Source: Naegleria gruberi
Lineage: Eukaryota
Reading direction: 5' to 3' (one strand)
Assembly (NCBI GenBank): GCA_000004985.1
Contig: GG738850.1
DNA: 64,000 bases
The notes beneath the pieces are model-generated. The model was not told where the DNA came from. It saw only the letters and a list, made by a program, of their open reading frames with translations, and made no database searches. Position numbers and translations under genes: made by a program. Below are positions 15,941 through 56,500 of the stretch, piece by piece (position 1 is the first letter of the stretch; each line of letters opens with the position of its first letter).

Positions 15941-18900
15941 CTGGTCTTTAGAATGGGCTGTCGTCATTATTATTCCAATATTCATGAAGCTGGTTCACTT
16001 AATTTTAACACTTGACTTTCCGAGTTTGTATTTATTAACAATTATTGCATACGATTGGAATGGACAGCTCACTTTATTAGGGCTTGTGCTTGCCTTACAT
16101 GAAAGGTGTGTTATTGTAAAGCAAGTGGACTTTCCATTATCCAATCGTTTAGTTTGATGATTCGTCTACAATTAGTCAATACGGTTCACCTTTCTTCCAG
16201 TTTATGATACCGCAACACGATCTATTTGGTGTGGTGACTACAAACAATACAAGATCTAGTGAAGAATACTGCACAATGTTGGTGCATAAATTGAGTGAAT
16301 GGAAGAGACACTTTATTTCTCACTTTGAAAAAAACAAACAATATGTATTACAACAAACATTGTAGTACAAGAGTAATTCTTTCATTAATTAGCACAATTT
16401 TATTGTGTGTATTGATTGAAAGTATTATTGTAGAAGGTCAATGTCCTCATCAACAAGTTGGTTTGGTCAATTTTAACACATTAACTGGTTGGAATGTTGC
16501 CAATTATGATATTGTTATTACAAAAGCTGTCAAGTTAAATATTTCTCCTCCAAACAAATTACGTTCAATCACTGTTAAATCAGGTGGTTCTTTAATTTTT
16601 GATAATATTGATCTCAATTTGAATTTGAATTTCATTAGAGTTGAATCAAATGGTAGTTTTATAATGGGTAGTTCAAATTGTCCAATCACTTCAAAGGTTA
16701 TCTTGACATTGTATGGTGATCGTGTCAATAGTTCTATCAATGATCTTGGTAGTGATCCATTCGATGGAAGTAAATTGGGTTCAAAAGGTGTTGCTTTCTT
16801 GAGTGGATCTATTGTTCAAATTTATGGTAAAGTTGATGGACCAAGTTGGAGTGAAATTATCAAGAATTCCACCAAGGGAAGTTCACAACTTGAATTGAAA
16901 GAAGCTGTTCAATGGAGAGTTGGTGATTCAATTGTTGTTGCTTCAACAGATTATGGTGAATTATATGATTATAGAGTTGAAAAGAATGCTTCATTGGGTT
17001 GGATTCGTGGTGAACCATTTCCAAATCAAAATGAAGAGAGAAAGATTATTCAATTATTGAATGGAAACAAGACCATTATTTTAGATAGAGCATTGAATTA
17101 TACTCACTTTGCAAGTGTTGATGGAAAGATTCGTGCAGAAGTTGGTTTATTGACAAGAAGAATTGTTTTCAGAGGTGATGATTCATCTGAAAGTTCACTT
17201 TTTGGTGGTCACTTTATTATTCGTTTGGTTGATAAATTTAATATGGAAGGTGTTGAAATTACAAGATTTGGTCAACAAGGTTTAATGGGAAGATATAGGT
17301 ATGTTTGGTGTTGGTAATCATTTTTATTTAACTTGTATTTAATATTGTTTTTAATGATTTATTTAACTATTACTTATTATTCATTAATAGTTTCCATTTC
17401 CACTTGTTACAAAACAAACCATTTGGATTGAATTTCACAGTTAAGGATAATACAGTTCATCACAGTTTCCAAAGATGTTATGTTGTTCACGATACTAATT
17501 ATATTTTATTGAAGAATAATGTTTGTTATCGTGCATTTGGTCATATGTACTTCTTGGAAGATGGATCTGAAGTAGGAAATGAATTTAACAATAATTTGGG
17601 AGTTGATCCAATTCCAATCTCAAGAGAAAATCCTCGTCAAATCATTTTATCTGATTCTGATGTTTCAGTTTTTTGGATTACTAATCCAAACAATACATTC
17701 ATTGGAAATCATGCAGTTGGTGGTCGTTTCCCATTTTGGTTTACAATGCCAACATTCCCAACTGGATTGAGTGCAAATAGATACGCAGCTGGCTCTATTA
17801 ATCCAAGAACTGCTCCTCCAAAACCATTCGAAAACAATGTTGGTCACAGTTCATCAGGAAATGCTCTTCACATTGATGATATGGAAAAAGCTGATGGAAG
17901 TACAGAACTTGCTGGTTATTTTCCTTCAGGTGTTGTTGAAGCACTTTACAATGGATTTATTGCTTATAAGAATAGAGGATATGGTGTTTGGGCACGTGGT
18001 GGTTTACTTCGTTTCAAAAATTTATTCTTAACTGATAATAGAATTGCCATGAATTCTCCACCAGGACCAAGTATCATTCATGACAGTACTTTTATTGGTG
18101 AATCTGAAAATGTTGGTGAATTTTCATACAGACCAAAGATTGATCTTGGAAATAGAACAAGACCAGGTCAATATGTTAGTTCCAATTTGGATTTGATTAA
18201 GGGTTATGAAACTTATGATAATGGTGGTCCACAATACTTGAGAAATATCACTTTTATCAACTTTGTTACTGATTCATTCAAATATGCAGGTTCCTTATCT
18301 TCATTGAATAATTACTTTAAACATCAATCCAAAAACAGATATGCCAATTTAAAGTTTGTTAATGCAAACAGATATATGGTTTTCCCTTGGAATTATCCAA
18401 CTTATTATGATAATCACAAGGCAACTGCTTTGATGGATGTGGACGGCTCAACCACAAGTATTTCATCAATTGGTGGTTGGATCACTGGTAATGACACAAC
18501 CATGACATTCACACAATGTCAAGCAAGAACTGAATGGAATGCCTATCAATGTCCATTCTTTGGTGAATCTTTTGCTCAATTCAGAGTTGTTAACTGGAAT
18601 TTAACAAGTGTTAACACAACTGGAAGTGATGGTATTAGTAGACCTGATATTATTAACACTGGCAAGAGAGTTCCAAGAATGATTCTTGTTGATTTATTGA
18701 GAAATCGTGAATCCAATGTTATTGGTGCATTAATTGGTGCTACTCAAGAATATTTCATGCAAAGTAACCTGATTGCAAGAGGTTTCTATGGGCTTCGTTG
18801 GCCATACGACATTCCAACACCAAAAGATTTGAGTTTCTTCCTTGATTCATGTGCATCAAATGATTGGATTGTTGTTTCTGTTCAATATCCAAAAGGAACA

Positions 18901-20283
18901 ATTTTCAACATTAGATTCTACATGAGTCCAACAACAATTAACATGACCAGAACTGCAAACTTTACAACCATGTTGAGTGAGCCGACCAAATATTATTATT
19001 ATGATGATGCCACTGAACATTTGTACTTGAAGATCCAAAATAATGCACCAAGATCCTGGTATAGAGTTGTTGATAGCTTTGTTGATTACTATTCAACTGG
19101 TGTTGTTTATTTGAATGCCACATGTCCGAGAGGTATTTGTGCACCATCAAAATTCTCCAATCCAAGCAATGCAGGAACAACATATAAGACATTAATGAGA
19201 GAAGATAGATTTGTTGGAAGATTGGAAACATGTCAACAAGCAAGTGTGAAATCATTGGCTGCCAATTCCACAAGTGGAAGTGGTTATGTTTTTGCATTCT
19301 TGAATTCCAAAACAGCTTCTCTTGATTTTACTGTTCAACACAATTTGAACGATATTGTTACATCAATTGATATTGGATTTGGACTTGCAGGAAAGGAAGA
19401 ATACATTTCCACACCAACCTCAAAGATTATTCCCTATACTCAAAGCAGATTTGGTTACACCTTGTCATATGAAGAGTGGAATTATTTACTCCAAGGTAAA
19501 ATGTTTGTGAAATTATCAACTACTCAAAATGCAAATGGACATTTGAGAGCTCAACTCTATATTAACAACGCTACATCAACAAGTTGTAATTTACCACCTT
19601 TGGTTTCAAATGTTAAACCGTGTGATGCTTTGAATTTGAAGAATTCTTCCCATGTTATTTCAATTTATAGTGAAGGTCCAAAATTGACAAATGAATGGTA
19701 CATGTATGCCTATGTTCCAGCTGATATTAGAAATACATTTGTTAATGCTAGTTATGCACCAGCTATTTGTGGAAACTCATCAATGCATTTTGGTTTCAGA
19801 AAGGGAAATATTTCATTCAACAAGATTGGTTCCAATAAGATTTATGTAGATACCAGTATTTATCAATACTTTGAATTCTTTATCAAGACTGTCAATAATA
19901 CTGGAAGTGTTCCAAGTTTGACAATTGTATTTGGTTATTTGAATGATACAAAGGTTGTTGACTTTTCTAGAATCAACACACAAGCTAATCACACTCAATA
20001 TTTAAAGATTGATGGAAATACAGTGACTCGTGTGAGAATTCCACTTTCTGAACTTGGTTTTGCACCAATTCAAAACATTCACAGAATTATCTTGTACTTG
20101 CCAGATCAAACTAATTTCATTGAATTCTTGATGGATAATATGAGATTTGTTGGAGCACCAGCAACAGCTGAAAGCACAGCAAGAACCATGACTGTTTCTC
20201 AATGTAAATACTTTGGTGGTGTTTCATCATGTGGAAGTTTGGTAAATCCAGATCCAGATCCATTAGGTATTAGAAAATTGTAA
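15941..20283. repeat. Inverted-repeat arm A (about 4.34 kb). Includes the promoter region and the whole G8-protein gene, and ends exactly at its stop codon.
   Basis: Reverse complement of 36910-41255 aligns along the full length. Coding part is about 97% identical; the 5' flank (15941-16340) is about 85-90%. Similarity stops at 'ctggtcttta' (15941) on the outside and immediately after the TAA (20283) on the inside. Confidence 0.9.
16343..20283 (+). CDS. Secreted G8-domain / parallel-beta-helix-like protein (CEMIP/TMEM2/PKHD1-like), copy 1. Two exons: join(16343..17313, 17391..20283).
   Basis: ATG at 16343 with signal peptide 'MYYNKHCSTRVILSLISTILLCVLIES'. G8-like glycine-spaced beta pattern 'SITVKSGGSLIFDNIDLNLNLNFIRVESNGSFIMG..ILTLYG'. 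77-nt intron GTAATC...AATAG joins in-frame to 'CFHFHLLQNKPFG...'. About 1,290 aa. AATAAA lies 6 nt after the stop. Confidence 0.7.
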
Positions 20284-27888: not shown

Positions 27889-29271
27889 TTATTGAAAGTT
27901 TTCGTATTCTGAGCTGTCACTTTCACTTTCCTCCTCTTCTAGTTTGTCCAATGCCACAAAATAATGTTTCAATTCAGGTTCATTTCGTAACTCGTCTGAA
28001 GCATATTCAATTAGGAGAGGATGAATTCTAACAGCTTCTAATACGACCTCCTTATCAGATTGCAATCTATTCGAAACATATTCAAGTATTTCGTGTTTCT
28101 GCGATAACAACTCTAAAACGAATGGTTTGTCATCTTTCAATTCATCACATGCATATTTAAAGTTGCTACATTCAACTTTTACAATTTCTCTTATAATTTC
28201 CTTGTTAGAATTCAAACATTCTTTCAATCTCTCAGAAATATAGGAAAATATGTTGCATTTCTGTTCTAACAGCTCCAAAACGAATTCCTTATCAGATTTC
28301 AATTCATCAGCTGCATATTCAAATAGATATCCACACTTTTTAACTGATTTCTTAACAATATCCTTGTCAGATTTCAATCCATCTGACACGTATATGAATA
28401 TTGTTTGTTTCTGCTCTAACAGTTCCAAAACGAATGATTTATCATCCTTCAATTCATCACATGCATATGTAAAGTTGCAACTTTCAAGCTTAACAATTTT
28501 TCTTATAATTTCCTTGTTAGAATTCCAAGTTTTTTTCAATCTCTCAGAAATATAGGAAAATATGTTACGTTTCTGTTCTGTCAGCTCCAAAACAAATTGT
28601 TTGTCATCTTTCAATTCATCACTGGTATTTTCAAAGTTAACAAATCCAGCTTTTACAAATATCTTCTCGACTTCTAAAATGTCTTTGTGTGATCTCAGTT
28701 CTTGTGATCGATAATGGAGTAAAGACGGATCAGTGGTTTCTAATGGTAAATCACTTTCGAATTCTTTTGGAATAATCTCCACAAGTTTTATATTAAATCG
28801 AGGAGAGGAGATCAACTTTTGAAGGAGAGGTTCATAATTCCACAGCAAGAACACCTTTGCCATATTTAAAACCATATCAACCGAACACTTTTCCATCATT
28901 TTACAAAGAATTGAGAATGCAACCTCTCTATTAGCCATCAAAGTTGCATAATTCCAATTCAATTCACGATCAAGATAAGCTCTTCCACTAATCACGATCC
29001 TATCTGATGAATCAGATCTTGTACCGAAAGATTTGACATAGCTCATTGCCATGATCATGTCTTTTCTAGTGAGTCGTTTGGGGAATAATTTCTGTTGTAA
29101 TAAGATGGATTTGTAATTTTCATCTAGTAAGAGAATGAAAGTGGAAGGAGTTTTGGTATTTTGTACCAATGGAATGGTACTTGTGTTGTTGTTATTGTTG
29201 TGCATGAGAGTGGTTGTATTAGTAATATTGTTATTGTTGTTGTTTGAGATGAGAGTAGTTGAGTGTTTCAT
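27889..29271 (-). CDS. DUF4116-repeat protein with an N-terminal poly-Asn tract.
   Basis: 460 aa. At least 5 repeats of 'ELKDDK(E/S)FVLELLEQKxNIFxYxSxxLKxDKExV'. N-terminus 'LISNNNNNNITNTTT..HNNNNNTST'. A-rich start context. Confidence 0.6.
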   Translation of the reverse strand: MKHSTTLISNNNNNNITNTTTLMHNNNNNTSTIPLVQNTKTPSTFILLLDENYKSILLQQKLFPKRLTRKDMIMAMSYVKSFGTRSDSSDRIVISGRAYLDRELNWNYATLMANREVAFSILCKMMEKCSVDMVLNMAKVFLLWNYEPLLQKLISSPRFNIKLVEIIPKEFESDLPLETTDPSLLHYRSQELRSHKDILEVEKIFVKAGFVNFENTSDELKDDKQFVLELTEQKRNIFSYISERLKKTWNSNKEIIRKIVKLESCNFTYACDELKDDKSFVLELLEQKQTIFIYVSDGLKSDKDIVKKSVKKCGYLFEYAADELKSDKEFVLELLEQKCNIFSYISERLKECLNSNKEIIREIVKVECSNFKYACDELKDDKPFVLELLSQKHEILEYVSNRLQSDKEVVLEAVRIHPLLIEYASDELRNEPELKHYFVALDKLEEEESESDSSEYENFQ

Positions 29272-33275: not shown

Positions 33276-34446
33276 ATGATGATAATTAGCTGTTCATGTA
33301 ATTTGATTATTGACAGGAATCCGATAATCACTCCTGGAATGCCAAAAGTTTTGGCAGATAGATTACGATATCTAGAATCCATTAAAAAAGCCAAAGGTAT
33401 TAAAATTGCTAATGGATCAAAAGCAGCAACTAACGAATTTCCATTTATGGTATCTCTTCAGTATCAAGCAAGTAGTTCGAGCGTTCCTTATCATTTCTGT
33501 GGTGGATCAATTATTAATAAGCGATATATCATGACAGCAGGTAAGTTTTGATATGACTTTTGACATTTTTAACATTGTGAACTAGCTCACTGCATGTTCG
33601 ATGACACTAATGTAAAATTGACACCTTCTACCATTGTGGTTCTTGCAGGAGTCAACTATAACACCATTTCTACATCAAGTTTATCTGGAAATTACGCAAA
33701 AGGCAGCTCAATTACAGTTCATACAAGTTTCAGCTCGAAAACACTTGCAAATGACATTGCAATTATTTATTTAGATAGAGATTTGACAATTGATGGAACA
33801 ACTACACGTCTGGCTTACATTGAATCAGGTTCAGTTCCAATCCCAACTGCATCCTCAAAGATTCTCGTAGCTGGTTGGGGTTACACTGACTCAACTGAGG
33901 TTGCTTCTGAAAATTTGTTAAAAGTTAATATTCCAATTGTTTCTGATACGATCTGTAATTCATATCCATTGAGTTTGGATATGGCTAAACCAAGACAAAT
34001 ATGTGCTGGTGATGGTGCTGGTCACGATTCTTGTAAGTTGTTGATTTTTACAAAATTTAATTGTAAAATATTTTGAATTTATTACAATTATTGGAAATTG
34101 TTGGAAAATAGGTAGTGGTGATTCAGGAGGTCCATTGTTTAGAGTAGTCAATTCAAACACCAAGGACTTTGCAGTTGTTGGATTGGTAAGCTACGGACCT
34201 GATGGTTGTGGAACTGGATACGAAACTAACAGAGGTGTCTATACGAATACTACCTATTATTTGAATTCGTTTATTAGAAGTGTTGTTTCATCGGTTCAAA
34301 CTGATACCTACAATTCAAATTCAAGCTATGTCTATACCGGAACAAGTGGTGGTTCAACCAAATCTGATGCAAGTTTAGGATTTGATTTGAAGAGTTTCGT
34401 ATTTATTGTTGTAATGTGTTTGGGAATGATCTTTTATGCCTTGTAA
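33276..34446 (+). CDS. Trypsin-like (S1/chymotrypsin-family) serine protease with C-terminal hydrophobic anchor (GPI/TM). Three exons: join(33276..33540, 33586..34032, 34112..34446). The 5' start is uncertain.
   Basis: Mature N-terminus 'IANGSKAATNEFPFMVSL'. Catalytic His in 'TAAHC' (split by the 45-nt intron 33541-33585). Asp in 'DIAIIYL'. Ser in 'GDSGGP' (after the 79-nt intron 34033-34111). Both introns are GTAAGT...AG and phase-consistent. C-terminus 'FVFIVVMCLGMIFYAL'. An additional upstream exon is possible (acceptor 'ttgacag' at about 33320). Confidence 0.8.
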
Positions 34447-34515: not shown

Positions 34516-35703
34516 TCAAAGTTCATCATGTGAATGCTTGTTGGAATAATCAGTTGATGGAGCATGAAAATGATTACCATTTTGGAATTGAGATAATTTA
34601 GTGGCACCTATGAGAATTGGATCGTCAATGGAGTGTAAAATATTCTTACCGAATTGATGTTCGATAATTGAAGAAATTGTTGGAAAGGAACATGTCGAAT
34701 TGAAAAGGATAATGTGATCTATTTGAGAGGGAGGATAGGATTCCATAATCTTGTGGAGATCTTGTTTGAAAATATCGAGTAATGGAGAGGAAACTTCAAT
34801 ATATTCTTCCAAGGTAATTTCCTTGAGTAATTTGCTATTCGAAAGGTCAGTTTCATGATCAAATATTTGGACTGGTTGTTTCTTAGCTAGTTTACATCTC
34901 AATTGCTTTGGATCTATTTTCAAATCAATTCCTCCAGGCCAATATCTTTCGAATAAGGAATCGAATTCATTCCATCCTATTCTTGGATCTGACTTTTCGA
35001 GTAATTTCTTTAATTTTTCATTAGAAAAATCCCAAACACCAACTTGCAACTCATAACTATTCCAATTCATTATCAAAATCTTTGAATTCTCCTCAGGAAT
35101 CAAATCATATCCTTTTATAGCTAAACTTTCCTCATCCACCAAATCAACTTGTAAATCCTTTGGCGCCAAATCCAATATTTTCCTTCTTTGTTGCTTGGAA
35201 AGTTGACTTGGAATAGAAATTATCATTCTCTCAACAGTTTCCTTCAGAAATTCTTCTGAACTTTCTTTCAACTTTTCGAATACTAAAATGGAAAATGCTT
35301 CAATCGGATCCAACAACTCAGTCGAACCATTATTAAACTTTAACTCCACAATTGGATTACCAGAATGATCTTGGATAATTTTACTTGGATAATCATCTAT
35401 AAAATCTGTTGGTAATTCATCAAATTTGTGCTCTAAAAGAAATCTGATTTGGTCAACTCTGTTTGAGTGTTGAAGATTTGCTTGTTCTCCAAACATAATT
35501 TCTCCATTTTCCATAATTGCAATAGAAGTATCCACTCTGTCATGTCCATTTGTGGTAATTCTGAAAAACATATCATGCTTGATGGTTGCAATGGAAATAA
35601 ATTCGTGAGTGAAATGAATTCCAACGCTCGCTTGATGAGAATGCAAAACAAGGGAAAGGATGAAAAATAGAAATATTAGCACCGCTGGTTGAATGGTTTT
35701 CAT
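34516..35703 (-). CDS. Secreted, divergent Hsp70 nucleotide-binding-domain-like protein (actin-like ATPase fold, likely catalytically degenerate, no substrate-binding domain).
   Basis: 395 aa. Signal peptide 'MKTIQPAVLIFLFFILSLVLHS'. 'SVGIHFTHEFISIA..RVDTSIAIMENGEIMFGEQA..IRFLLEHKFDE..LDPIEAFSILVFEKLKESSEEF' parallels Hsp70 '[65 protein letters not shown]'. The phosphate-1 loop DLGTT is replaced by HFTHE. Confidence 0.5.
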   Translation of the reverse strand: MKTIQPAVLIFLFFILSLVLHSHQASVGIHFTHEFISIATIKHDMFFRITTNGHDRVDTSIAIMENGEIMFGEQANLQHSNRVDQIRFLLEHKFDELPTDFIDDYPSKIIQDHSGNPIVELKFNNGSTELLDPIEAFSILVFEKLKESSEEFLKETVERMIISIPSQLSKQQRRKILDLAPKDLQVDLVDEESLAIKGYDLIPEENSKILIMNWNSYELQVGVWDFSNEKLKKLLEKSDPRIGWNEFDSLFERYWPGGIDLKIDPKQLRCKLAKKQPVQIFDHETDLSNSKLLKEITLEEYIEVSSPLLDIFKQDLHKIMESYPPSQIDHIILFNSTCSFPTISSIIEHQFGKNILHSIDDPILIGATKLSQFQNGNHFHAPSTDYSNKHSHDEL

Positions 35704-35919
35704 TTTTTTTTTAAATATTATTTAGAATTTGTTGGAAGACTTTTTTGGAAACTTGCCAAAAATAGTGGATTATTTAAGTTTCGGTAGTTTCGTCCAAGAT
35801 TAAGGTTAGATGGAGAAAGTGAAGATATTTAAGCCAACAATTTAAGGCGAAACGTGATCAAGTCATAACTTTTTTTATTGACATCTCGTGTCAACTTGTT
35901 CATCACGTTTCTAAAAAAA

Positions 35920-36891
35920 ATGGCAGAAAATACACTGGTTTTATGTGAAGAAGACTATTCTTTAACTAAACAACAATTTGCTGAAAATGAATTCGAAGAA
36001 ACAAATTTAAATTGTGAACAGAAACTAGACGAAAGTGATGATGATCAGTATATGGCTCATTCACCCAATACTAAACCAACAACAGAAACAAAATTGGAAG
36101 ATATCGCTGTAGGTGATGTTGAAAATTCCAACCATTTTCGTGTGAAAGCACGATCATTATCAATAACATCAATAGTTGCAGTGATAATAATCATGGGATT
36201 GGTATTTATTCGAATCGAGAATGAAAAAAACACTACTCATGTCAACAACTTGTTGGAAGAAGCCAGAAACGAAATTTCCAAATTAAAACACGATATGAAG
36301 ATGACACTGGAGGAAAAGAACAACCTTAAAGAACAATTTTACAAAGTGGCTCTCCAGGTTTTACATTTAGAACAGAAAGAACAAGAATCGTCCGTAAAGC
36401 TTTCGTCTATTCAAAAGCAAAACGAGAAAATCATTTCAACCTTGGAAGAACAACCCAAATCAGACTTGATAAATGGTTCAGATTTGAAGAGACAGCTTTC
36501 TGCGTTCCAAGAATCAATTATCAAATTCGAAAAGATAATCGAAGAAAAGAATGAGGAAATTCAAAACTTGAACTTTGAAATCTCTAAAAATTCAATTGCT
36601 ATTGAAAAATTGACTGATAGTAATATAGGTTTAAAGAAGGAAATTGTAAATCTGCCCCAACTCTCGCTGAAGAAGGAAGAATTAATTGAAGAAAATCAAG
36701 TCAAAGAAATGCATTATGAAAGCCTAAACGAACCGAATGCAGTTGATGATTTATCAAATAATGTTGAAGAAGAACATTTATTGTCACCACTACTGGTCAT
36801 ATTCTTTAGGGTTATTGAAATACTTGTTTTTACTTTTTTTGTCTTGATAGTTGGGTGCATATGTATTTTTGTTATGAGTATTAAAAAATAA
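35920..36891 (+). CDS. Coiled-coil, tail-anchored membrane protein, hypothetical.
   Basis: ATG at 35920 after an A-run. Long heptad-like K/E-rich region. C-terminal TM 'LLVIFFRVIEILVFTFFVLIVGCICIFVMSI'. Internal hydrophobic segment 'ITSIVAVIIIMGLVFI'. Confidence 0.5.
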   Translation: MAENTLVLCEEDYSLTKQQFAENEFEETNLNCEQKLDESDDDQYMAHSPNTKPTTETKLEDIAVGDVENSNHFRVKARSLSITSIVAVIIIMGLVFIRIENEKNTTHVNNLLEEARNEISKLKHDMKMTLEEKNNLKEQFYKVALQVLHLEQKEQESSVKLSSIQKQNEKIISTLEEQPKSDLINGSDLKRQLSAFQESIIKFEKIIEEKNEEIQNLNFEISKNSIAIEKLTDSNIGLKKEIVNLPQLSLKKEELIEENQVKEMHYESLNEPNAVDDLSNNVEEEHLLSPLLVIFFRVIEILVFTFFVLIVGCICIFVMSIKK

Positions 36892-36909: not shown

Positions 36910-39900
36910 TTACAACTTTCTAATACCTAATGGATCTGGATCTGGATTTACCAAACTTCCGCACGATGAAACACCACCAAAGTATTTACATTGAGAAACA
37001 GTCATGGTTCTTACTCTGGTTTCAGCTGTTGCTGGTGCTCCAACAAATCTCATATTATCCATCAAGAATTCAATGAAATTAGTTTGATCTGGCAAGTACA
37101 AGATAATTCTGTGAATGTTTTGAATTGGTGCAAAACCAAGTTCAGAAAGTGGAATTCTCACACGAGTCACTGTATTTCCATCAATCTTTAAATATTGAGT
37201 GTGATTAGCTTGTGTAGTGATCTTGGAAAAGTCAACAACCTTTGTAACATTCAAATAACCAAATACAATTGTCAAACTTGGAACACTTCCAGTATTATTG
37301 ACAGTCTTGATAAAGAATTCAAAATATTGATAAATACTGGTATCTACATAAATCTTATTGGAACCAATCTTGTTGAATGAAATATTTCCCTTTCTGAAAC
37401 CAAAATGCATTGATGAGTTTCCACAAATAGCTGGTGCATAACTAGCATTAACAAATGTATTTCTAATATCAGCTGGAACATAGGCATACATGGACCATTC
37501 ATTGGTCAATTTTGGACCTTCACTATAAATTGAAATAACATGGGAAGAATTCTTCAAATTTAAAGCATCACACGGTTTAACATTTGAAACCAAAGGTGGT
37601 AAATTACAACTTGTTGATGTAGCATTGTTAATATAGAGTTGAGCTCTCAAATGTCCATTTGGATTTTGAGTAGTTGATAATTTCACAAACATTTTACCTT
37701 GGAGTAAATAATTCCATTCATCATATGATAAGGCATATCCAAATCTGCTTTGAGTATATGGAATAATCTTTGAGGTTGGTGTGGCAATATAATCTTCCTT
37801 TCCTGCAAGTCCAAATCCAATATCAATTGATGTGACAATAGCATTCAAATTGTGTTGAACAGTAAAATCAAGAGAAGCTGTTTTGGAATTCAAGAATGCA
37901 AAAACGTAACCACCTCCACTTGTTGAATTGGCAGCCAATGATTTCACACTTGCTTGTTGGCATGTTTCCAATCTTCCAACAAATCTATCTTCTCTCATTA
38001 ATGTCTTATATGTTGTTCCTGCATTGCTTGGATTGGAGAATTTTGATGGTGCACAAATACCTCTTGGACATGTGGCATTCAAATAAACAACACCATATGA
38101 GTAGTAATCAACAAAGCTATCAACAACTCTGTATGATGTTCTAGAAGCTTGATTTTGGATCTTCAAGTACAAATGTTCAGTAGCATCATCATAATAGTAG
38201 TAATTCTTAGGTTCACTCAACATGGTTGTAAAGTTTGCAGTTCTGGTCATGTTAATTGTTGTTGGATTCATGAAGAATCTAATGTTGAAAATTGTTCCTT
38301 TTGGATATTGAACAGCAACAACAATCCAATCATTTGCAGCGCTTGCATCAAGGAAGAAACTCAAATCTTTTGGTGTTGGAATGTCGTATGGCCAACGAAG
38401 CCCATAGAAACCTCTTGCTACCAAATTACTTTGCATATAAAAGTCACCACTGGAGCTTAATGCACCAATAACATTGGATTGGCGATTTCTCAATAAATCA
38501 ACAAGAATCATTCTTGGAACTCTCTTTCCTGAATTGATAATATCAGGTCTACTAATACCATCACTTCCAGTTGTGTTAACACTTGTTAAATTCCAATTCA
38601 AAACACGGAATTGAGCAAAAGATTCACCAAAGAATGGACATTGATAGGCATTCCATTCAGTTCTTGCTTGACATTGTGTGAATGTCATGGTTGTGTCATT
38701 ACCAGTAATCCAACCACCAATTGATGAAATACTTGTGATTGAGCCGTCTACATCCATCAAAGCAGTGGCCTTGTGATTCTCATAATAAGTTGGATGATTC
38801 CAAGGGAAAACCATATATCTGTTTGCATTAACAAACTTTAAATTGGCATATCTATTTCTGGATTGATGTTTAAAGTAATTATTCAATGAAGATAAGGAAC
38901 CTGCATATTTGAATGAATCAGTAACAAAGTTAATAAAAGTGATATTTCTCAAATATTGTGGACCACCATTATCATAAGTTTCATAACCCTTAATCAAATC
39001 CAAATTGGAACTAATATATTGACCTGGTCTTGTTCTATTTCCAAGATCAATCTTTGGTCTGTATGAAAATTCACCAACATTTTCAGATTCACCAATAAAA
39101 GTACTATCATGAATGATACTTGGTCCTGGTGGAGAATTCATGGCAATTCTATTATCAGTTAAGAATAAATTTTTGAAACGAAGTAAACCACCACGTGCCC
39201 AAACACCATATCCTCTATTCTTATAAGCAATAAATCCATTGTAAAGTGCTTCAACAACACCTGAAGGATAATAACCAGCAAGTTCTGTACTTCCATCAGC
39301 TTTTTCCATATCATCAATGTGAAGAGCATTTCCTGATGAACTGTGACCAACATTGTTTTCAAATGGTTTTGGAGGAGCAGTTCTTGGATTAATAGAGCCA
39401 GCTGCGTATCTGTTTGCACTCAATCCAGTTGGGAATGTTGGCATTGTAAACCAAAATGGGAAACGACCACCAACTGCATGATTTCCAATGAATGTATTAT
39501 TTGGATTAGTAATCCAAAAAACTGAAACATCAGAATCAGATAAAATGATTTGACGAGGATTTTCTCTTGAGATTGGAATTGGATCAACTCCCAAATTATT
39601 GTTAAATTCATTTCCTACTTCAGATCCATCTTCCAAGAAGTACATATGACCAAAAGCACGATAACAAACATTATTCTTCAATAAAATATAATTAGTATCG
39701 TGAACAACATAACATCTTTGGAAACTGTGATGAACTGTATTATCCTTAACTGTGAAATTCAATCCAAATGGTTTGTTTTGTAACAAGTGGAAATGGAAAC
39801 TATTAATGAATAATAAGTAATAGTTAAATAAATCATTAAAAACAATATTAAATACAAGTTAAATAAAAATGATTACCAACACCAAACATACCTATATCTT

Positions 39901-40847
39901 CCCATTAAACCTTGTTGACCAAATCTTGTAATTTCAACACCTTCCATATTAAATTTATCAACCAAACGAATAATAAAGTGACCACCAAAAAGTGAACTTT
40001 CAGATGAATCATCACCTCTGAAAACAATTCTTCTTGTTAATAAACCAACTTCTGCACGAATCTTTCCATCAACACTTGCAAAGTGAGTATAATTCAATGC
40101 TCTATCTAAAATAATGGTCTTGTTTCCATTCAATAATTGAATAATCTTTCTCTCTTCATTTTGATTTGGAAATCGTTCACCACGAATCCAACCCAATGAA
40201 GCATTCTTTTCAACTCTGTAATCATATAATTCACCATAATCTGTTGAAGCAATAACAATTGAATCACCAACTCTCCATTGAACAGCTTCTTTCAATTCAA
40301 GTTGTGAACTTCCTTTGGTGGAATTCTTGATAATTTCACTCCAACTTGGACCATCAACTTTACCATAAATTTGAACAATAGATCCACTCAAAAAAGCAAC
40401 ACCTTTAGAACCCAATTTACTTCCATCGAATGGATCACTACCAATGTCATTGATAGAACTATTGACACGATCACCATACAATGTCAAGATAACTTTTGAA
40501 GTGATTGGACAATTTGAACTACCCATAATAAAACTACCATTTGATTCAACTCTAATGAAATTCAAATTCAAATTGAGATCAATATTATCAAAAATTAAAG
40601 AACCACCTGATTTAACAGTGATTGAACGTAATTTGTTTGGAGGAGAAATATTTAACTTGACAGCTTTTGTAATAACAATATCATAATTGGCAACATTCCA
40701 ACCAGTTAATGTGTTAAAATTGACCAAACCAACTTGTTGATGAGGACATTGACCTTCCACAATAATACTTTCAATCAATACACACAATAAAATTGTGCTA
40801 ATTAATGAAAGAATTACTCTTGTACTACAATGTTTGTTGTAATACAT
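36910..40847 (-). CDS. Secreted G8-domain / beta-helix-like protein, copy 2: complement(join(36910..39799, 39877..40847)).
   Basis: Paralog of the 16343..20283 gene. Same signal peptide, same intron position and sequence. ATG at 40847..40845. Coordinates derived by symmetry with copy 1. Confidence 0.7.
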
Positions 40848-41255
40848 ATTGTTTGTTTTTTTCAAAGTGAGAAATAAAGTGTCTCTTCCATTCACTCAAT
40901 TTATGCACCTAACCATCTTGGTTGTGTATTATTCCTCAAATCACAACAGAACGTGTTGTTTGTGGTCCCTTCACCAAATACATGAAATTTGAAGATACTG
41001 AAAGGTGAACCATATTGTATAATTGAAGACGAATCATCAAACTAAACGATTGGATAATGGATGTGCACTTGCTTTACAACAACACATCTTTCATTTTAGG
41101 TGTACCCAAGCCCTAATAAAGTGAGCTGTCCATTCCAATTGTAAGCTGCAATAATTGTAAATAAAACTAAAGACGGAAAGTCAAGTGTTAAAATCAAGTC
41201 AACCAGCTTCATGAATATTGGAATAATAATGACGACAGCCCATTCTAAAGACCAG
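36910..41255. repeat. Inverted-repeat arm B (about 4.35 kb), the reverse-complement copy of 15941-20283.
   Basis: See arm A. The 77-nt intron is 100% identical between copies. Exons differ at about 2-3% of nucleotides, giving about 3% amino-acid substitutions (e.g. 'ALIGATQEYFMQ' versus 'ALSSSGDFYMQ'). Confidence 0.9.
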
Positions 41256-41831: not shown

Positions 41832-43274
41832 ATGACATTATCTTCAGCAGCAGAAACATCAGCAACATTAGAAATTTCTGGTAATTTGATTAAAAATTCA
41901 TCGGAATATGTGAGGGAAATGATAAATAATTTCGGAAGCACCAACAAGACAACACAACTATGTTCTATTGGTGGTGGATTATTGGGAAGTTTATTCATGT
42001 TAAGGTGGATTGTTGGAGTTTCTAAAAAGTCAAAGGAAAAGAAGAAGGAAATTGAAAGGATTTTCAAGGAAATTCAACAAGATTGTAGACAACAAGTCAA
42101 TGAATTGGTCAAGAAGGAAAATGTCTTGTCAAAGAAACAGAAAATTGGTGTCTTGATTGTTAATTTGGGAACTCCTTCACAAGCCACTCATCATTATGTT
42201 TACAGATATTTGTCTCAATTTTTAATGGATGGTCGTGTGATTGATGTGAGCTACTTGTTGAGATTTTTATTGGTGAGAGGAATTATTGTTCCATTCAGAT
42301 ATAAGAGATCGACTCGATTCTATCAAGAAATTTGGAAGAATAAGGATTATTCAAATTCAGAATGTTCTCCACTCAAATATAATACCACTAGTTTGGTTTC
42401 TAAAGTGAGTGAAAATTTGAAAGGATTGAATGATGACAATTGTGAATTCCAAGTGGAAATGGCCATGAGATATCAAGAACCTTCAATTGAAAGTGGTTTG
42501 AAAAAGCTTGAAGGTTGTGCACATATTGTAGTGGTGCCACTCTTCCCACAATATGCAAGTGCAACCACTGGATCTACTCATGAAGAATGCATGCGTGTTG
42601 TAATGAAATGGTTGACTATTCCAAGTTTACATTTTAATAGTACATTCAATTTGATGGACATGTTTATCAAATCCAATGTGAAGAGAATTCAAGAAGCTCT
42701 TCAAAGAACCAAGACTGAAAGAGAAAATCAACCATTCGATCACCTCCTTCTCACTTATCACAGTCTTCCAGTTCGTCATGTCACTCAAGAATTCCAAGAA
42801 AAGAAGAGTTTACAATATTCCTACTATCAACAATCCTTTGAGACTAGTGTTGCAATTTTGAAAGAATTATTCAACTGCACAGCAGAAGAATTAATCCAAG
42901 ATGAAACCAATGTTGGATGGTTTACTTACAAGAGAAGTCAATCTGATTCAAGTGATGACTATTCCTCCAATTTCACACCAACTCTCCAAATTTCCACATG
43001 TTTCCAAAGCAGATTAGGTAAGGAACCTTGGCTTGAACCTTACACCTCAAAAACTCTTGGACTCTTGGCAAAACAATCAAGTCGTGTCCTCATTGCTTGT
43101 CCATCATTCACTTCTGATTGCATTGAAACAGATCACGAATTGGAAATTGAGGAAAAGGAAGAATTCTACTTGAAGGGAGGTAAATACATGGCTGTTGCTC
43201 GATGTGTCAACGATGATGACCTATTTGCCAATGGATTGACTGATTTAATTGCTAAATATAAACAAGTTTTGTAA
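41832..43274 (+). CDS. hemH: Ferrochelatase (protoheme ferro-lyase) with N-terminal extension/TM (probable mitochondrial targeting).
   Basis: 480 aa. 'IGVLIVNLGTPSQATHHYVYRYLSQFLMDGRVIDV', 'LVRGIIVPFRYKRSTRFYQEIW', 'VVVPLFPQYASATTGST' are ferrochelatase signatures. Confidence 0.85.
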   Translation: MTLSSAAETSATLEISGNLIKNSSEYVREMINNFGSTNKTTQLCSIGGGLLGSLFMLRWIVGVSKKSKEKKKEIERIFKEIQQDCRQQVNELVKKENVLSKKQKIGVLIVNLGTPSQATHHYVYRYLSQFLMDGRVIDVSYLLRFLLVRGIIVPFRYKRSTRFYQEIWKNKDYSNSECSPLKYNTTSLVSKVSENLKGLNDDNCEFQVEMAMRYQEPSIESGLKKLEGCAHIVVVPLFPQYASATTGSTHEECMRVVMKWLTIPSLHFNSTFNLMDMFIKSNVKRIQEALQRTKTERENQPFDHLLLTYHSLPVRHVTQEFQEKKSLQYSYYQQSFETSVAILKELFNCTAEELIQDETNVGWFTYKRSQSDSSDDYSSNFTPTLQISTCFQSRLGKEPWLEPYTSKTLGLLAKQSSRVLIACPSFTSDCIETDHELEIEEKEEFYLKGGKYMAVARCVNDDDLFANGLTDLIAKYKQVL

Positions 43275-43595: not shown

Positions 43596-44978
43596 ATGGG
43601 CAAGAAATCAAACTCTTCATCATCAGGCTCCTCCAGCAATTCTACTATTGGCTCTGTTCTTGGTATTTCCTTCTCCTCGGCACGTAATTCCTCTTCAAAA
43701 CCTCCACGAGAAATTATTCCTGCTCAAGAATACTATGAAAACATTCTCAAGTATACTTCCTCCACTTCAGAGGATGAATTAATTCAAGCCTTGAATAAGT
43801 ACTTGTTCAAAGCCTCTGATTTGTACTTTTATTATTATGAATTTAGTGGATGGAGGGATTTTACCAATGTAAGAAGAGCCTTCCATAAGATGGTGCAGAT
43901 GCAAACTTTCCTTTCACTATTGAGAGGAAAATACTATGTAGAAGTTACTAATAACAACAATAATAGTAGTAGTAGTAATAGTAATAATACTTCTTCAAGT
44001 AATCAGGAAGCAATTAATAATGAAGAAGCACCATCAGTAGAGAGTAAAGTCGTCCATATCGATTTTAATGCTCTGAAGAAGTCTCTCAAGTCTACACAGA
44101 GGATTGATTGTTCTTCACTTTCTGCAATTTCTAATATGGGAAAACCATCTGTGAAATCTTCCTCTAAATCTTCATCATCATCATCAGACTCTAAGAATAA
44201 TCGTGGAACAATCTTTCAAGTGGTGGAATCGGATTGTCTTGATGCAGCTGTTGCCTTAAAGACCAAACTCAAGTTGAATCCACTCATGTTGGTGAATGGA
44301 AGTTTGTCTCATCCTGGTGGAGGTTATTTGCAAGGTTCTTTTGCACAGGAAGAAGATATGTGCAGGAGATCTTCATTAGCTCTCTCATTGGATGATCCTT
44401 TCAAGATGGATGATGGTAGATCATGGTCCTATCCTTTACCAGAATTTGGAGGTGCTTATGTAGGTGATTGTTTTGTTATTAGAAAATCAGCCAAGGATGG
44501 TTATCAATTTTTGGAGAGTATTGTAAATATTTCAATGTTATCTATGGCTGCTTATGCTAATCCACCTGTGGAAAATCGAGTAATTGGAAAGGATGAGAAT
44601 GGAAAGGATATTGTGGAATGCTTTTTAGATTCAAAGCTCACATTAAGTATGAAAAAGAAGATTTCATCCTTTATTGAGATTGCTCTTCAAAAAGGTCACG
44701 ATTCTTTGGTGATTAGTGCAATTGGAGCAGGTGCTTATTCGAATCCAACATTTCACATTGCTACTCTCTTCAAAGAAGTTCTCTCCAGTGAAAATTACAA
44801 GGACAAATTTAAGATTGTTCTCTTCTCTATCATTAACGATAAGAATGCTGCCAATAATGTGAAGAATATGTATGGCACCTCACAGAAAACTAATCTTTCA
44901 ATCTTTTCCAATGTTATTCACTCTAAAGAACCTCATCTCCTTCCAACATTGGAAGAATTCATCCAACAACAAAAGTAA
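43596..44978 (+). CDS. Macro-domain-related protein of the bacterial-type poly(ADP-ribose) glycohydrolase family (DUF2263/TIGR02452-like), with N-terminal S/N-rich region.
   Basis: 460 aa. Signature 'LVNGSLSHPGGGYLQGSFAQEEDMCRRSSL' (GGG-x6-8-QEE...C.R.S.L). C-terminal 'VISAIGAGAYSNP'. Confidence 0.55.
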   Translation: MGKKSNSSSSGSSSNSTIGSVLGISFSSARNSSSKPPREIIPAQEYYENILKYTSSTSEDELIQALNKYLFKASDLYFYYYEFSGWRDFTNVRRAFHKMVQMQTFLSLLRGKYYVEVTNNNNNSSSSNSNNTSSSNQEAINNEEAPSVESKVVHIDFNALKKSLKSTQRIDCSSLSAISNMGKPSVKSSSKSSSSSSDSKNNRGTIFQVVESDCLDAAVALKTKLKLNPLMLVNGSLSHPGGGYLQGSFAQEEDMCRRSSLALSLDDPFKMDDGRSWSYPLPEFGGAYVGDCFVIRKSAKDGYQFLESIVNISMLSMAAYANPPVENRVIGKDENGKDIVECFLDSKLTLSMKKKISSFIEIALQKGHDSLVISAIGAGAYSNPTFHIATLFKEVLSSENYKDKFKIVLFSIINDKNAANNVKNMYGTSQKTNLSIFSNVIHSKEPHLLPTLEEFIQQQK

Positions 44979-53548: not shown

Positions 53549-56500
53549 TTAAATAACGAACAAAATACAACCCAAAACAAAAATTAACACTGCTTTCGTA
53601 ACATTGCAAGAGGTAGCTGCCAATGAAACTGTTGGTATGATAATCTTTGGTAATTCAACAGTAACTCTTTCAATTGAAGTTCCATCGGCTGCAAATGTGG
53701 AAATTGAAGCAACTGGTGTTGAGCTAGTTCCAGAATTAACCTTAACTTTCATTGTGATGGTGTAACTTGCTGGTGAGAGAGTTTGACCGAGAGTTGCATT
53801 CAATTTGTTGGAGGCATCAACATTCATTGAAGTAAATTGAATGACAATACCTTTTGAATCTGTTATAATGAAATTATCTGAAAGTGCACGTTTACTTTCA
53901 GATGTAAGTGTGAATGCTGCAGGAAGTGACATGACCAATGAACCTCCCATTGGAATTGGCTTTGTAATCACCATGGCTGTCTTGACACTCACCATTCCAC
54001 CAACAGGAACATAGGCAGTAGTACTTGTTTGTGGAGTAACAGGATTAATTGGATTGGTAGAATTATTGTTTGTAGAATTTGTGTTGGAGGTGTTATTGGC
54101 AATGGTTGAATTGTTGGTGGATGTACCATTGTTAACTACTGGATTAGTGGATGAATTAGTGGAATTGTTTCCATTATTGTTAATGACATTGTTGTTTGGA
54201 TTTGTGGAATTTGAATTGGTAGTATTGGAAGTGGATGTGTTGTTTCCATTCATTGAATTATTTCCACCAGAATCTGTTGTATTAGTTGTTGATGTATTAT
54301 TTGTTACAATAGAACTGTTACTATTTGTGGAGGAATTATCAACATTTGTACCATTACTAATAATTGAGTTATTTCCACTTGTTGTATTATCAACATTAGT
54401 ATTGTTACCATTGTTAACATTTGTATTATTACTGGCATTGGTATTATTGCTAGATGTAGTAGAATTGTCTACATTTGTGCTATTATTTCCATTGTTAACG
54501 TTAGTATTGTTATTGATGTTAGTGTTATTGCTGTTAGTAGTAGAATTATCAATATTTGTATTGTTATTATTATTAACATTAGTATTATTACTATTTGTGG
54601 AGGAATTATCCACATTAGTATTATTATTATTAGCATTGGTAGAATTATCAAAGTTAGTGTTATTATTACTACTACTTGTTGAATTATCAACATTAGTAGC
54701 ATTATTATTAAGACCTGGATCAGTATTATTATTCGAAGGAGAATCATTGACTGAAGATACAGTAAAAGTACCAGTGCTCTTAACAGTTAATATATAACTA
54801 CCACTGGATTGATCTTGTGTTGCAGTGCAGGTATCATCTGCAACATAATCACCAACAGAATCGTCCCATTTCAAACATTGATAAGTGGTTGTTGAAATTG
54901 TTCTCAATCCACGCAATTTTCTTGTAGAGCTACTGATTGAGGAATCAATTTGTAACTCGGCAATGCTTTCGGTATGATTCACATTCAATGCTTGATTCAA
55001 GTGTGAAATGACAAATTCAACAGCATTGGCCAATGCCTTGGAACAATTTGGTTTGAAAACATTAAGAGTAATATCAACTGAATCAGTAACATTGGACAAA
55101 GTTTGTAATAGATTGAACTTTTCACTCAATTTGAAACCATTTTTACCAGATATAGTTTCATTCAATCCATTTAAGAACGACTTGGTAACCTTTCTTCCGT
55201 AGGCCTTAACATCCTTATTAAGTAAAATAGTGGCTGGCATATCTGGAACCTTTTGATTTGAAGCAATATTGACCAATGAAGTATAAACTTGTTTAAGTTT
55301 TTCAGTTGGTTTCTCAGTTTTCAATTTTGAAGGTAAAATAGATCTGACACTTGAAGTAGTAAACAAAGTATCAGCTACTTGTTGAGTTTGTGTAAGAGTT
55401 TCATCAGATACTGGAATTGAACTATCCAGAGCTGTTGTTGTAGTTGAAATTAAAGTATCAGCAATTAAATTTGAAGTGTTTGATGACATCATGTCCATAT
55501 TTTCAGTTGCAATATCCAAAATAGTTGCTGTTGAAGCAACAAGAGATTCGGTTGGACTAGTAATAGATGCTTCTTGTTGAGTATTATTCAACATGGTGTT
55601 AATAACTGAATCAGCAACTTGAGCCAATTCTTGTTGAACCGTTTCACTGTCATTTGATTGAGAGTAATTAGCATTGGCAATGGATTGAATTAAAGCAGCA
55701 CCATCTGAAACTGGAATATTACTTTGATCAGCAATAGCATTTGCAGTTGCAACAGTTTCGTCCAAAGTTGCCTCGGTAACATTTACAGTTGTAATGGCAC
55801 TCGAAGAAGCACCCATTGCATCATAGACAGTTACTGATACTTCATTCACACCTACGATACCCAACTTTAATGAATAGAAACTAGTCTCAGAACGTGACGA
55901 AACAATGGTCCTTACTGAATTGGAATTTGGACCTCTTGTACTAAATTCATAAGTTAATGGAAGTTGCGCATCAGTCCAACCATTACCACATGAAACCTTA
56001 AAATCTGTCAATAGGGAAACACCAGAGCTTGGCTCAACGAGTAATTCACCAACTGTTGGTGGTGAGTTCACAGTGAAGAACACTTCAGCAGTACCTTCTT
56101 TATCGATAGTTGTGTTTCCAATAATAACAGTATCCTTAATGGTAATCTTCATTTCATTGGAGCTACCTGGAGTTAATAATTTTGATGGAATGATAATGTA
56201 TGCCTTTGTTACTTCCACACCAGTTAAATCAATCGATGAAGATTCCCATAAGAATGATTTGGAATCACTGAGTACAACTGGTTGAATTAACAATGCTCTC
56301 AAAACCAAATCCTTTGATGGATTGACAACTGATAAATCAACGCCGTCCATAGGCATAATTGACGAGGTAATAACAGTGTCCTTTGAAATTTCCAAAACGG
56401 TAACCTTAAGAGAATCAGTAGCAGTTCTGTTTTGCTTTCTATAAGTAACAGTGAAAAGATAGGAACCAGGATCCATTAATTGACTCATTTTCATGGTATT

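What the first reader, a model, noticed from the sequence alone, without database searches (positions are those of the whole stretch)
34516..35703. Secreted, truncated Hsp70-NBD-like protein with a degenerate phosphate-binding loop
A 395-aa protein with a clear signal peptide aligns along its length to the Hsp70 nucleotide-binding domain (lobe I motifs, 'IRFLLEHKFDE' against '[10 protein letters not shown]', 'LDPIEAFSILVFEKLKE' against '[16 protein letters not shown]'). It lacks the substrate-binding domain. The canonical GIDLGTTYS is replaced by GIHFTHEFI. This looks like a pseudo-chaperone or actin-like ATPase-fold protein sent to the secretory pathway, which is unusual.
Basis: partly seen in the sequence, partly recalled or inferred. 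Interest (0 to 1): 0.5.

Follow-up and report, generated by a model that had tools for sequence, protein, structure and literature searches.

The report
ER-retained dead Hsp70 ATPase-domain protein
This Naegleria gruberi gene encodes a short relative of the Hsp70 chaperones that is sent to and kept in the endoplasmic reticulum, has only the ATPase domain and has lost essentially every ATP-binding residue, so it is a real but single-species "pseudo-chaperone" of unknown partner rather than a secreted enzyme.

Summary
Window 34516-35703 (- strand) is an intact 395-codon ORF, identical to N. gruberi NEG-M XP_002681546.1 / D2V3N4 ("predicted protein"). It has an N-terminal signal-type leader. It matches only the nucleotide-binding domain (NBD) of Hsp70 (Pfam PF00012 E=2e-12; BiP/DnaK NBD structures E~5e-13; model vs BiP NBD TM 0.72). 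There is no linker or substrate-binding domain, and none is encoded anywhere in the window.

The protein ends in HDEL, so it is ER-retained rather than secreted. The degeneration also goes well beyond one loop:
- Phosphate-1, phosphate-2 and adenosine loops are all replaced (GIHFTHEFI, NWNSYELQ, LFNSTCSFP).
- D10->H, K71->R, D199->N and D206->Q (Hsc70 numbering).
- The J-domain contact Arg is Asp.

The gene is under purifying selection (dN/dS 0.22 against a second strain, p=0.004). It has no relative between 98% and ~27% identity among 1.84 billion representative proteins.

Best reading: a lineage-restricted, catalytically dead, ER-lumenal NBD-only Hsp70 paralogue that acts by binding, not by ATP turnover. 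Its partner is unknown. The closest known architecture is metazoan HSPA13/STCH, which is an active ATPase and not an orthologue. I rate it a new variant of a known kind, of moderate interest.

The parts
34516..35703 (-). Complete single-exon CDS, 395 aa plus TGA stop (34516-34518); N. gruberi NAEGRDRAFT_63429 / D2V3N4
35626..35703 (-). Signal-type leader, aa 1-26 (MKTIQPAVLIFLFFILSLVLHSHQAS). Cleavage is expected around aa 22-26. The first NBD strand begins at aa ~25.
   Evidence: Hydrophobicity and residue pattern. Model helix 5-20 then strand from 24 (model numbering is protein numbering minus 1). No dedicated signal-peptide predictor was available.
34600..35547 (-). Region matched by the Pfam HSP70 profile (aa 53-368 against profile positions 28-369 of 599). 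This is the nucleotide-binding domain only.
   Evidence: PDB alignments; Foldseek to BiP NBD
35596..35622 (-). Degenerate phosphate-1 loop, aa 28-36: GIHFTHEFI in place of GIDLGTTYS (D10->H30, G12->T32, T13->H33, T14->E34)
35443..35445 (-). R87 at the position of catalytic Lys71 (Hsc70 numbering)
35131..35145 (-). aa 187-191, DLVDE in place of RIINE. The J-domain contact Arg (DnaK R167 / Hsc70 R171) is Asp187, N174 is D190, and catalytic Glu175 is kept as E191.
35044..35067 (-). Degenerate phosphate-2 loop, aa 213-220: NWNSYELQ in place of DLGGGTFD (D199->N, G201->N, G202->S, G203->Y, T204->E, D206->Q)
34681..34707 (-). Degenerate adenosine-binding loop, aa 333-341: LFNSTCSFP in place of LVGGSTRIP (G338->N335, G339->S336, R342->S339). 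N335-S-T forms an N-glycosylation sequon.
34519..34581 (-). Low-confidence (pLDDT<50) C-terminal tail, aa 375-395, ending in the ER-retrieval tetrapeptide HDEL (34519-34530). No interdomain linker and no SBD.
   Evidence: K/HDEL usage in Naegleria

Best explanation
The gene encodes a soluble ER-lumenal protein. It is imported through an N-terminal signal sequence and retrieved from the Golgi through its C-terminal HDEL. The protein is a stand-alone Hsp70 nucleotide-binding domain.

It most likely arose from an ER Hsp70 (BiP-type) by loss of the linker, substrate-binding domain and lid while keeping the leader and the HDEL tail. It then diverged quickly in the N. gruberi lineage.

The glycine-rich phosphate and adenosine loops and the Mg/catalytic residues are all replaced, so it cannot bind or hydrolyse ATP in the Hsp70 manner. 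Without an SBD it cannot hold clients in the Hsp70 manner either. It is therefore a pseudo-enzyme that must act by nucleotide-independent protein-protein binding.

The most plausible role is as a modulator or adaptor within the ER proteostasis and translocation network, by analogy with NBD-only HSPA13, whose ATPase-dead mutants are more potent than wild type.

Shown: the gene structure, targeting signals, fold family, loss of the site residues, purifying selection and lineage restriction. Inferred: actual ER residence, inability to bind nucleotide, BiP ancestry, and the binding-based role. The partner is unknown.
For: - Intact ORF identical to the annotated N. gruberi protein.
- Leader plus HDEL. 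N. gruberi ER residents use K/HDEL, its KDEL receptor is canonical, and this very protein is tabulated among 'Hsp70 (BiP family)' KDEL-bearing homologues.
- The Hsp70 match covers the NBD only.
- AF2 model: pLDDT 75, pTM 0.76, with all four subdomains. Its top Foldseek matches are BiP NBD structures at E~1e-23, TM 0.71-0.73.
- In a 103-sequence alignment, 24 of 32 functional positions examined are changed. At these positions even 100 very divergent Hsp70s keep G12 96%, G201 97%, G230 97%, G338 99% and K71 90%.
- No SBD is encoded in the window.
- dN/dS = 0.22 against a second strain (8 synonymous, 7 non-synonymous changes; p=0.004 against neutrality). The neighbouring ferrochelatase gives 0.085.
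- A 395-codon ORF kept open at 33% GC despite only ~22% identity to any Hsp70 argues for long-term selection.
- HSPA13 precedent for a binding-based, ATPase-independent effect.
Against: - No expression or localisation data were found: accession searches of the literature and of the supplements to three Naegleria papers with proteomics came back empty.
- Only two near-identical alleles exist, so the selection estimate rests on 15 substitutions.
- BiP ancestry is not resolved by sequence. Scores to BiP-like, Grp170-like, HSPA13-like and cytosolic Hsp70s are all within 34-65 bits.
- The canonical J-domain contact Arg is Asp and lobe IIB is shortened by ~15-20 residues. The obvious candidate partners (J-proteins, nucleotide-exchange factors) are therefore not supported by retained interface residues.
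- The AF2 model was built from an alignment of Hsp70s, so fold agreement is partly built in.
Confidence: 0.6

Rival explanations
1. Neofunctionalised binding protein unrelated to the chaperone network. The remodelled inter-lobe cleft (H30, H33, E34, E191, N213, Y217, E218, W244, with a possible glycan at N335) forms a new ligand- or metal-binding site, and only the Hsp70 scaffold is reused.
For: Every interface residue tested for the Hsp70 cycle is lost: the ATP site, the J-domain Arg, and part of lobe IIB. The cleft has gained His/Glu/aromatic residues and an N-X-T sequon exactly at the adenosine loop. The protein is lineage-restricted.
Against: No positive evidence for any ligand. I could not inspect the model coordinates to test the geometry. 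Retention of HDEL and an ER Hsp70-like leader is equally expected for a chaperone-network role.
Confidence: 0.2
2. Non-functional relic: a truncated, decaying duplicate of an ER Hsp70 that happens still to be an open reading frame.
For: All catalytic motifs are destroyed. No orthologue was detected outside N. gruberi. No expression evidence was found.
Against: A 395-codon ORF is kept open in 33% GC DNA after divergence to ~22% identity. Both targeting signals are intact. The ORF is intact in a second strain with an excess of synonymous changes (dN/dS 0.22, p=0.004). The predicted fold is complete.
Confidence: 0.12
3. Still an active 'ATPase core' like HSPA13/STCH, binding nucleotide through non-canonical residues.
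For: The architecture (leader plus NBD only) is that of HSPA13. E175, K271, D234, D366, P147 and R155 equivalents are retained, and K71 is conservatively Arg.
Against: Glycines that must be Gly for the phosphate and adenosine loops to wrap the nucleotide are N, S, Y, W, T, N and S. Mg ligands D10 and D199 are H and N. T13, T14 and T204 are H, E and E.
Confidence: 0.05
4. Gene-model artefact: the ORF is the first exon of a canonical full-length Hsp70.
For: Neighbouring genes in this window do contain introns, for example the trypsin-like gene at 33276-34446.
Against: The ORF ends in HDEL-stop, a coherent ER-protein terminus. The convergent neighbour's stop lies ~70 bp downstream. tblastn with a full BiP finds no SBD anywhere in 64 kb. 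The public annotation and an independent metagenome gene call give the same 395-aa product. The NBD itself is non-canonical whatever the gene model.
Confidence: 0.02

Closest known systems
HSPA13 / STCH (metazoan microsomal 'ATPase core' Hsp70)
   Same: Hydrophobic N-terminal leader, ER/microsome location, and an Hsp70 NBD with no substrate-binding domain. It acts at the translocon by binding, and its ATPase-dead mutants have stronger effects than wild type (PMC9691929).
   Different: HSPA13 keeps all canonical ATP-site motifs and is an active ATPase. It is 39% identical to BiP/HSPA1A, has a long insertion in lobe IIB, has no K/HDEL, and is conserved across Eumetazoa. The Naegleria protein is ~22% identical to any Hsp70, has lost the site, has a shortened lobe IIB, ends in HDEL, is confined to one species lineage, and is no closer to HSPA13-like proteins than to other Hsp70s.
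BiP / GRP78 / Kar2 (ER-lumenal Hsp70)
   Same: Signal peptide, C-terminal HDEL, and an NBD fold. BiP NBD structures are the top sequence and structure matches. The protein is catalogued with two other N. gruberi K/HDEL Hsp70s as 'BiP family' in a published supplementary table.
   Different: No linker, SBD or lid. The ATP site is destroyed. The J-domain contact Arg (BiP R197 equivalent) is Asp. Specific phylogenetic affinity to BiP is unresolved.
Other NBD-only, leader-bearing Hsp70s in protists (e.g. Cavostelium apophysatum transcript P0009, 426 aa)
   Same: A signal-like leader followed by an NBD only. This is the best-scoring member of a small comparison panel (64.7 bits).
   Different: P0009 keeps recognisable phosphate and adenosine motifs (IDFGTTYS, HLGGRT, SGGSTRIP) and has no HDEL. 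At 27% identity it is not an orthologue.
Atypical or non-cycling Hsp70s (Ssz1/HSPA14, Hsp110/Grp170)
   Same: Hsp70-family members that work as binding or regulatory partners rather than as classical foldases (established knowledge).
   Different: These retain nucleotide binding and an SBD-like region. Apart from Grp170/Lhs1 they are cytosolic.

Membership tests
Hsp70 superfamily (Pfam PF00012), NBD | Significant profile match over the nucleotide-binding domain | tested here: met
   46.5 bits against a cut-off of 20.6, E=2.1e-12, aa 53-368 against profile 28-369; PDB phmmer E=4.5e-13
Hsp70 superfamily (Pfam PF00012), NBD | Two-lobed actin-like ATPase fold with subdomains IA, IB, IIA and IIB | tested here: met
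   AF2 model pLDDT 75, pTM 0.76. Foldseek to BiP/Hsc70 NBDs gives E~1e-23, TM 0.71-0.73. Caveat: the model alignment consisted of Hsp70s. Lobe IIB is shortened.
Hsp70 superfamily (Pfam PF00012), NBD | Phosphate-1 loop D-x-G-T-T | tested here: not met
   The loop reads H-F-T-H-E (aa 30-34)
Hsp70 superfamily (Pfam PF00012), NBD | Phosphate-2 loop D-x-G-G-G-T-x-D | tested here: not met
   The loop reads N-W-N-S-Y-E-L-Q (aa 213-220)
Hsp70 superfamily (Pfam PF00012), NBD | Adenosine motif G-G-S-T-R-I-P | tested here: not met
   The motif reads N-S-T-C-S-F-P (aa 335-341)
Hsp70 superfamily (Pfam PF00012), NBD | Catalytic and Mg residues D10, K71, E175, D199, D206 | tested here: not met
   The equivalents are H30, R87, E191 (kept), N213 and Q220
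Canonical Hsp70 chaperone | Hydrophobic interdomain linker, beta-sandwich SBD and helical lid | tested here: not met
   The protein ends 20 aa after the NBD. The Pfam match stops at profile position 369 of 599. No SBD is encoded in the window.
Canonical Hsp70 chaperone | J-domain contact residues (DnaK R167, N170, T173) | tested here: not met
   The equivalents are D187, D190 and S193
BiP / ER-lumenal Hsp70 | N-terminal signal peptide | tested here: met
   n/h/c-region pattern and hydrophobicity. No SignalP-type predictor was available.
BiP / ER-lumenal Hsp70 | C-terminal K/HDEL retrieval signal | tested here: met
   The protein ends ...HSHDEL. K/HDEL is used by N. gruberi calreticulin, PDI, endoplasmin and HYOU1, and the KDEL receptor is canonical.
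BiP / ER-lumenal Hsp70 | Groups specifically with BiP rather than with other Hsp70 classes | tested here: inconclusive
   BiP NBDs top the PDB sequence and fold lists. Bit scores to BiP-like, Grp170-like, cytosolic and HSPA13-like sequences overlap at 34-65 bits. N. gruberi's own BiP paralogues could not be fetched.
HSPA13 / STCH | ER-targeted, NBD-only architecture | tested here: met
HSPA13 / STCH | Intact ATPase core (active ATPase) | tested here: not met
   The motif table against the HSPA13 description. Enzymatic activity itself is not testable here.
HSPA13 / STCH | Orthology: higher similarity to HSPA13 than to other Hsp70s | tested here: not met
   HSPA13-like hits P0141, P0074, P0137 and P0108 score 43-47 bits, no better than generic Hsp70s.

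The most novel reading that the evidence does not exclude
A species-lineage-specific ER-lumenal pseudo-Hsp70 that has been co-opted as a permanently nucleotide-free NBD mimic. It might titrate ER nucleotide-exchange factors or stress sensors that recognise the BiP NBD, or it might have converted the former ATP cleft into a new His/Glu-lined (or glycan-occupied) ligand site. Either way it would be a new regulatory layer of ER proteostasis, built from a dead chaperone domain.
Probability: 0.15. Interest if true: 0.6.

Novelty: new variant of a known kind. Interest (0 to 1): 0.35.

Why it matters
Pseudo-enzymes derived from chaperone ATPase domains are rare and poorly understood. The one well-known ER NBD-only Hsp70, HSPA13, still lacks a clear mechanism, and its ATPase-dead mutants are oddly more potent than wild type.

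This protein is a natural NBD-only ER protein that has discarded the ATP site and the J-domain contact, yet remains under selection. It would be a clean test of what an Hsp70 NBD can do without nucleotide cycling.

The case is limited by being confined, as far as current databases show, to one free-living amoeba lineage, and by the absence of any expression or interaction data.

Tried and rejected
1. Looked for orthologues or paralogues:
- The word-indexed search of 5.8 billion proteins found only a 98% identical metagenome copy and one BiP at E=3.7e-4.
- The exhaustive HMMER search of 1.84 billion representatives found nothing between 98% and 27% identity.
- The top hits are a taxonomic mixture of divergent but motif-intact Hsp70s: beetle, Juncus, Histomonas, Cavostelium, Tetrahymena.
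- A motif and tail screen of the top 150 found no similar leader + dead NBD + HDEL protein.
- The JGI metagenome scan found none.

2. Looked for expression evidence. Accession and ID searches in full texts and in the supplements of three Naegleria papers with proteomics found nothing. Stored files may be truncated, so absence is weak evidence.

3. Tried to restore a full-length Hsp70 gene model. tblastn of a full BiP against the window found no SBD, so I rejected this.

4. Tried the AlphaFold-database fold search to find structural neighbours and Naegleria paralogues. The library was unavailable.

5. Considered fetching N. gruberi D2VYB2 and D2VAK2 (the other K/HDEL Hsp70s) for a phylogeny. 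No tool fetches by accession. With ~22% identity the placement would be long-branch-dominated, so I ran no further search on it. Neither sequence, identified by its C-terminal decapeptide, is among the top 150 hits.

6. Considered a J-protein decoy role. It is disfavoured because the conserved Arg contact is Asp.

7. Considered HSPA13 orthology. I rejected it on similarity scores.

Full report
**What is at the coordinates**

Window 34516-35703 on the minus strand is one uninterrupted ORF of 395 codons. It has an ATG start preceded by an A-run, and a TGA stop at 34516-34518.

Exact-sequence look-up shows the window is Naegleria gruberi NEG-M. This product is EFC48802.1 / XP_002681546.1 / UniProt D2V3N4, annotated only as "predicted protein NAEGRDRAFT_63429", with the same 395-aa model. 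Neighbouring ORFs (ferrochelatase, microbial-type PARG, a phosphoesterase and others) are also exact N. gruberi proteins. A DUF4116-repeat ORF lies nearby, though its exact sequence is not in the collection.

A second, independent copy exists on a 1.6-kb metagenome contig (L001, ENA ERZ929261). It is 98% identical in protein, and the same 395-aa gene was called there.

- Pfam HSP70 (PF00012) matches at 46.5 bits (cut-off 20.6), E=2.1e-12. Residues 53-368 align to profile positions 28-369 of 599, which is the nucleotide-binding domain (NBD) and nothing after it.
- phmmer against all PDB sequences gives E=4.5e-13 to the Plasmodium GRP78 NBD (5umb, 8d1p). It gives ~1e-10 to 1e-9 to DnaK, Ssb1 and human BiP NBDs, with alignments running from residue ~28 to ~358.
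- An AlphaFold2 model built on a 15-sequence alignment has mean pLDDT 75 and pTM 0.76, with the full strand/helix order of the four NBD subdomains. Foldseek against the PDB returns BiP NBD structures first (7a4v, 3iuc, 6ha7; E~1e-23, TM 0.71-0.73), followed by other Hsp70 NBDs. The alignment consisted of Hsp70s, so this agreement is partly built in.
The only correction is that R87, not I86, aligns with Lys71.

First, the protein ends in HDEL. A published analysis states that Naegleria has a canonical KDEL receptor (D2V4W2) and canonical K/HDEL motifs (PMC10903960). Its S15 table lists N. gruberi calreticulin (…HDEL), two PDIs, endoplasmin and HYOU1 (…KDEL). Under "Hsp70 (BiP family)" it lists three proteins: D2V3N4 (YSNKHSHDEL, this protein), D2VYB2 (…HDEL) and D2VAK2 (…KDEL).

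The leader has Lys2, a 14-residue hydrophobic core, a small-residue c-region and no other hydrophobic segment. Together with HDEL, the expected fate is ER-lumenal residence, not secretion. Localisation itself is inferred.

Second, the ATP site is not merely altered in one loop. I aligned the protein with 100 of its best, very divergent Hsp70 hits plus human HSPA8. The alignment gives the following:

| Hsc70 position | Window residue |
|---|---|
| D10 | H30 |
| G12 | T32 |
| T13 | H33 |
| T14 | E34 |
| K71 | R87 |
| D199 | N213 |
| G201 / G202 / G203 / T204 | N / S / Y / E |
| D206 | Q220 |
| G230 | W244 |
| E268 | K271 |
| S275 | V278 |
| G338 / G339 | N335 / S336 |
| R342 | S339 |

Retained equivalents are P147, R155, E175, D234, K271 and D366. 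At the glycine positions even the 100 divergent comparison sequences are 93-99% Gly (77% at G203). The protein is therefore an outlier within the family.

The J-domain contact triad (DnaK R167, N170, T173) reads D187, D190, S193. Lobe IIB is ~15-20 residues shorter. After the last NBD helix there are only 20 low-confidence residues ending in HDEL, with no hydrophobic linker and no SBD.

tblastn of a complete BiP against the whole 64 kb finds no SBD-like sequence. The convergent neighbour's stop lies ~70 bp past this gene's stop. An alternative gene model restoring a full-length Hsp70 is therefore excluded.

**Is it a live gene?**

Against the second strain there are 8 synonymous and 7 non-synonymous differences, giving dN/dS = 0.22. 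The probability of that many synonymous changes under neutrality is 0.004. The neighbouring ferrochelatase, compared in the same two strains, gives 0.085, which is not significantly different.

A 395-codon ORF has been kept open in 33% GC DNA while the sequence diverged to ~22% identity from every other Hsp70. Both targeting signals remain intact. This also argues for sustained selection.

I found no expression evidence. Accession searches of full texts and of the supplements of three Naegleria papers with proteomics were empty.

**Relatives**

- The indexed search of 5.8 billion proteins and the exhaustive HMMER search of 1.84 billion cluster representatives found nothing between the 98% copy and ~27% identity.
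- The best distant hits are a taxonomic mixture of divergent but motif-intact Hsp70s, typical of long-branch similarity.
- None of the top 150 combines a leader, a dead site and HDEL.
- The JGI metagenome scan found nothing.
- Neither of the two other N. gruberi K/HDEL Hsp70s appears among the top 150 by its C-terminal decapeptide. No bridging paralogue is therefore detectable.

On present data the protein is restricted to the N. gruberi lineage.

Ancestry from an ER Hsp70 is the parsimonious reading: it has a leader and HDEL, and BiP NBDs top both lists. It is not resolved, because bit scores to BiP-like, Grp170-like, HSPA13-like and cytosolic sequences all lie between 34 and 65.

**How it most likely works**

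Shown:
- an ER-targeting and retrieval signal pair;
- a complete NBD fold;
- loss of the residues needed for ATP binding and hydrolysis and for J-domain coupling;
- no client-binding domain;
- purifying selection.

Inferred: it is a catalytically inert ER-lumenal pseudo-Hsp70 that acts by nucleotide-independent binding.

The best functional analogy is HSPA13/STCH, an ER NBD-only Hsp70. HSPA13 associates with the Sec61 translocon and Sec62/63, and its ATPase-dead mutants inhibit translocation more strongly than wild type (PMC9691929). This shows that an NBD alone can act in the ER through binding.

The Naegleria protein is not an HSPA13 member. HSPA13 is an active ATPase with intact motifs, a lobe IIB insertion and no K/HDEL. 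HSPA13-like proteins among the hits score no better than other Hsp70s.

Which partner it binds is unknown. The loss of the J-contact Arg and the trimmed lobe IIB argue against simple J-protein or exchange-factor decoy models.

Rivals:
- a scaffold reused for an unrelated ligand, given the cleft now lined with His/Glu/aromatic residues and an N-X-T sequon at the former adenosine loop;
- a non-functional relic;
- a cryptic ATPase;
- a gene-model artefact (rejected).

**Verdict**

This is a real feature, correctly spotted. The protein is ER-retained rather than secreted, and it is dead at the whole ATP site rather than at one loop.

The architecture has precedent in HSPA13 and in NBD-only protist Hsp70s such as the Cavostelium transcript P0009. 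The protein has already been tabulated once as a BiP-family K/HDEL protein. To my knowledge it has not been described as a truncated pseudo-ATPase.

I rate it a new variant of a known kind, interest 0.35.

Noticed in passing
window 16295-20283 (+) and 36910-40895 (-): Inverted segmental duplication of a two-ORF gene with G8, CEMIP beta-helix, CEMIP-X and CHRD domains (340 aa + 959/958 aa). The large ORFs are 95% identical in protein. The two copies flank a ~16.6-kb interval that contains the NBD-like gene, which sits next to the right-hand copy.
   Followed up: partly
window 33276-34446 (+): Trypsin-like serine protease gene split into at least three ORF pieces, so probably with introns. It has a hydrophobic C-terminal tail (GPI- or TM-like). 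It converges on the NBD-like gene, with ~70 bp between the stops.
   Followed up: partly
window 35878-36891 (+): 337-aa coiled-coil protein with a C-terminal hydrophobic segment (tail-anchored-like) and a weak KASH_CCD match. It is transcribed divergently from the NBD-like gene across a 174-bp intergenic region. That region carries a 15-bp indel between the two strains.
   Followed up: no
window 6576-12746 (+) and 53549-59512 (-): Two giant surface-type ORFs. One is 2056 aa with bacterial Ig (Big_9), cadherin-like and VWA domains. The other is 1987 aa with REJ and teneurin-type EGF domains.
   Followed up: no
window 27889-29271 (-), 41832-43274 (+), 43596-44978 (+): A DUF4116-repeat protein, ferrochelatase, and a microbial-type poly(ADP-ribose) glycohydrolase-domain protein. 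Ferrochelatase also has a near-identical copy on a contig from the same metagenome (L002).
   Followed up: partly
A leader-bearing NBD-only transcript from the amoebozoan Cavostelium is also present. NBD-only ER-type Hsp70s may therefore be more widespread than the 'Eumetazoa' description suggests. I did not check the source organisms of the four HSPA13-like hits.
   Followed up: no
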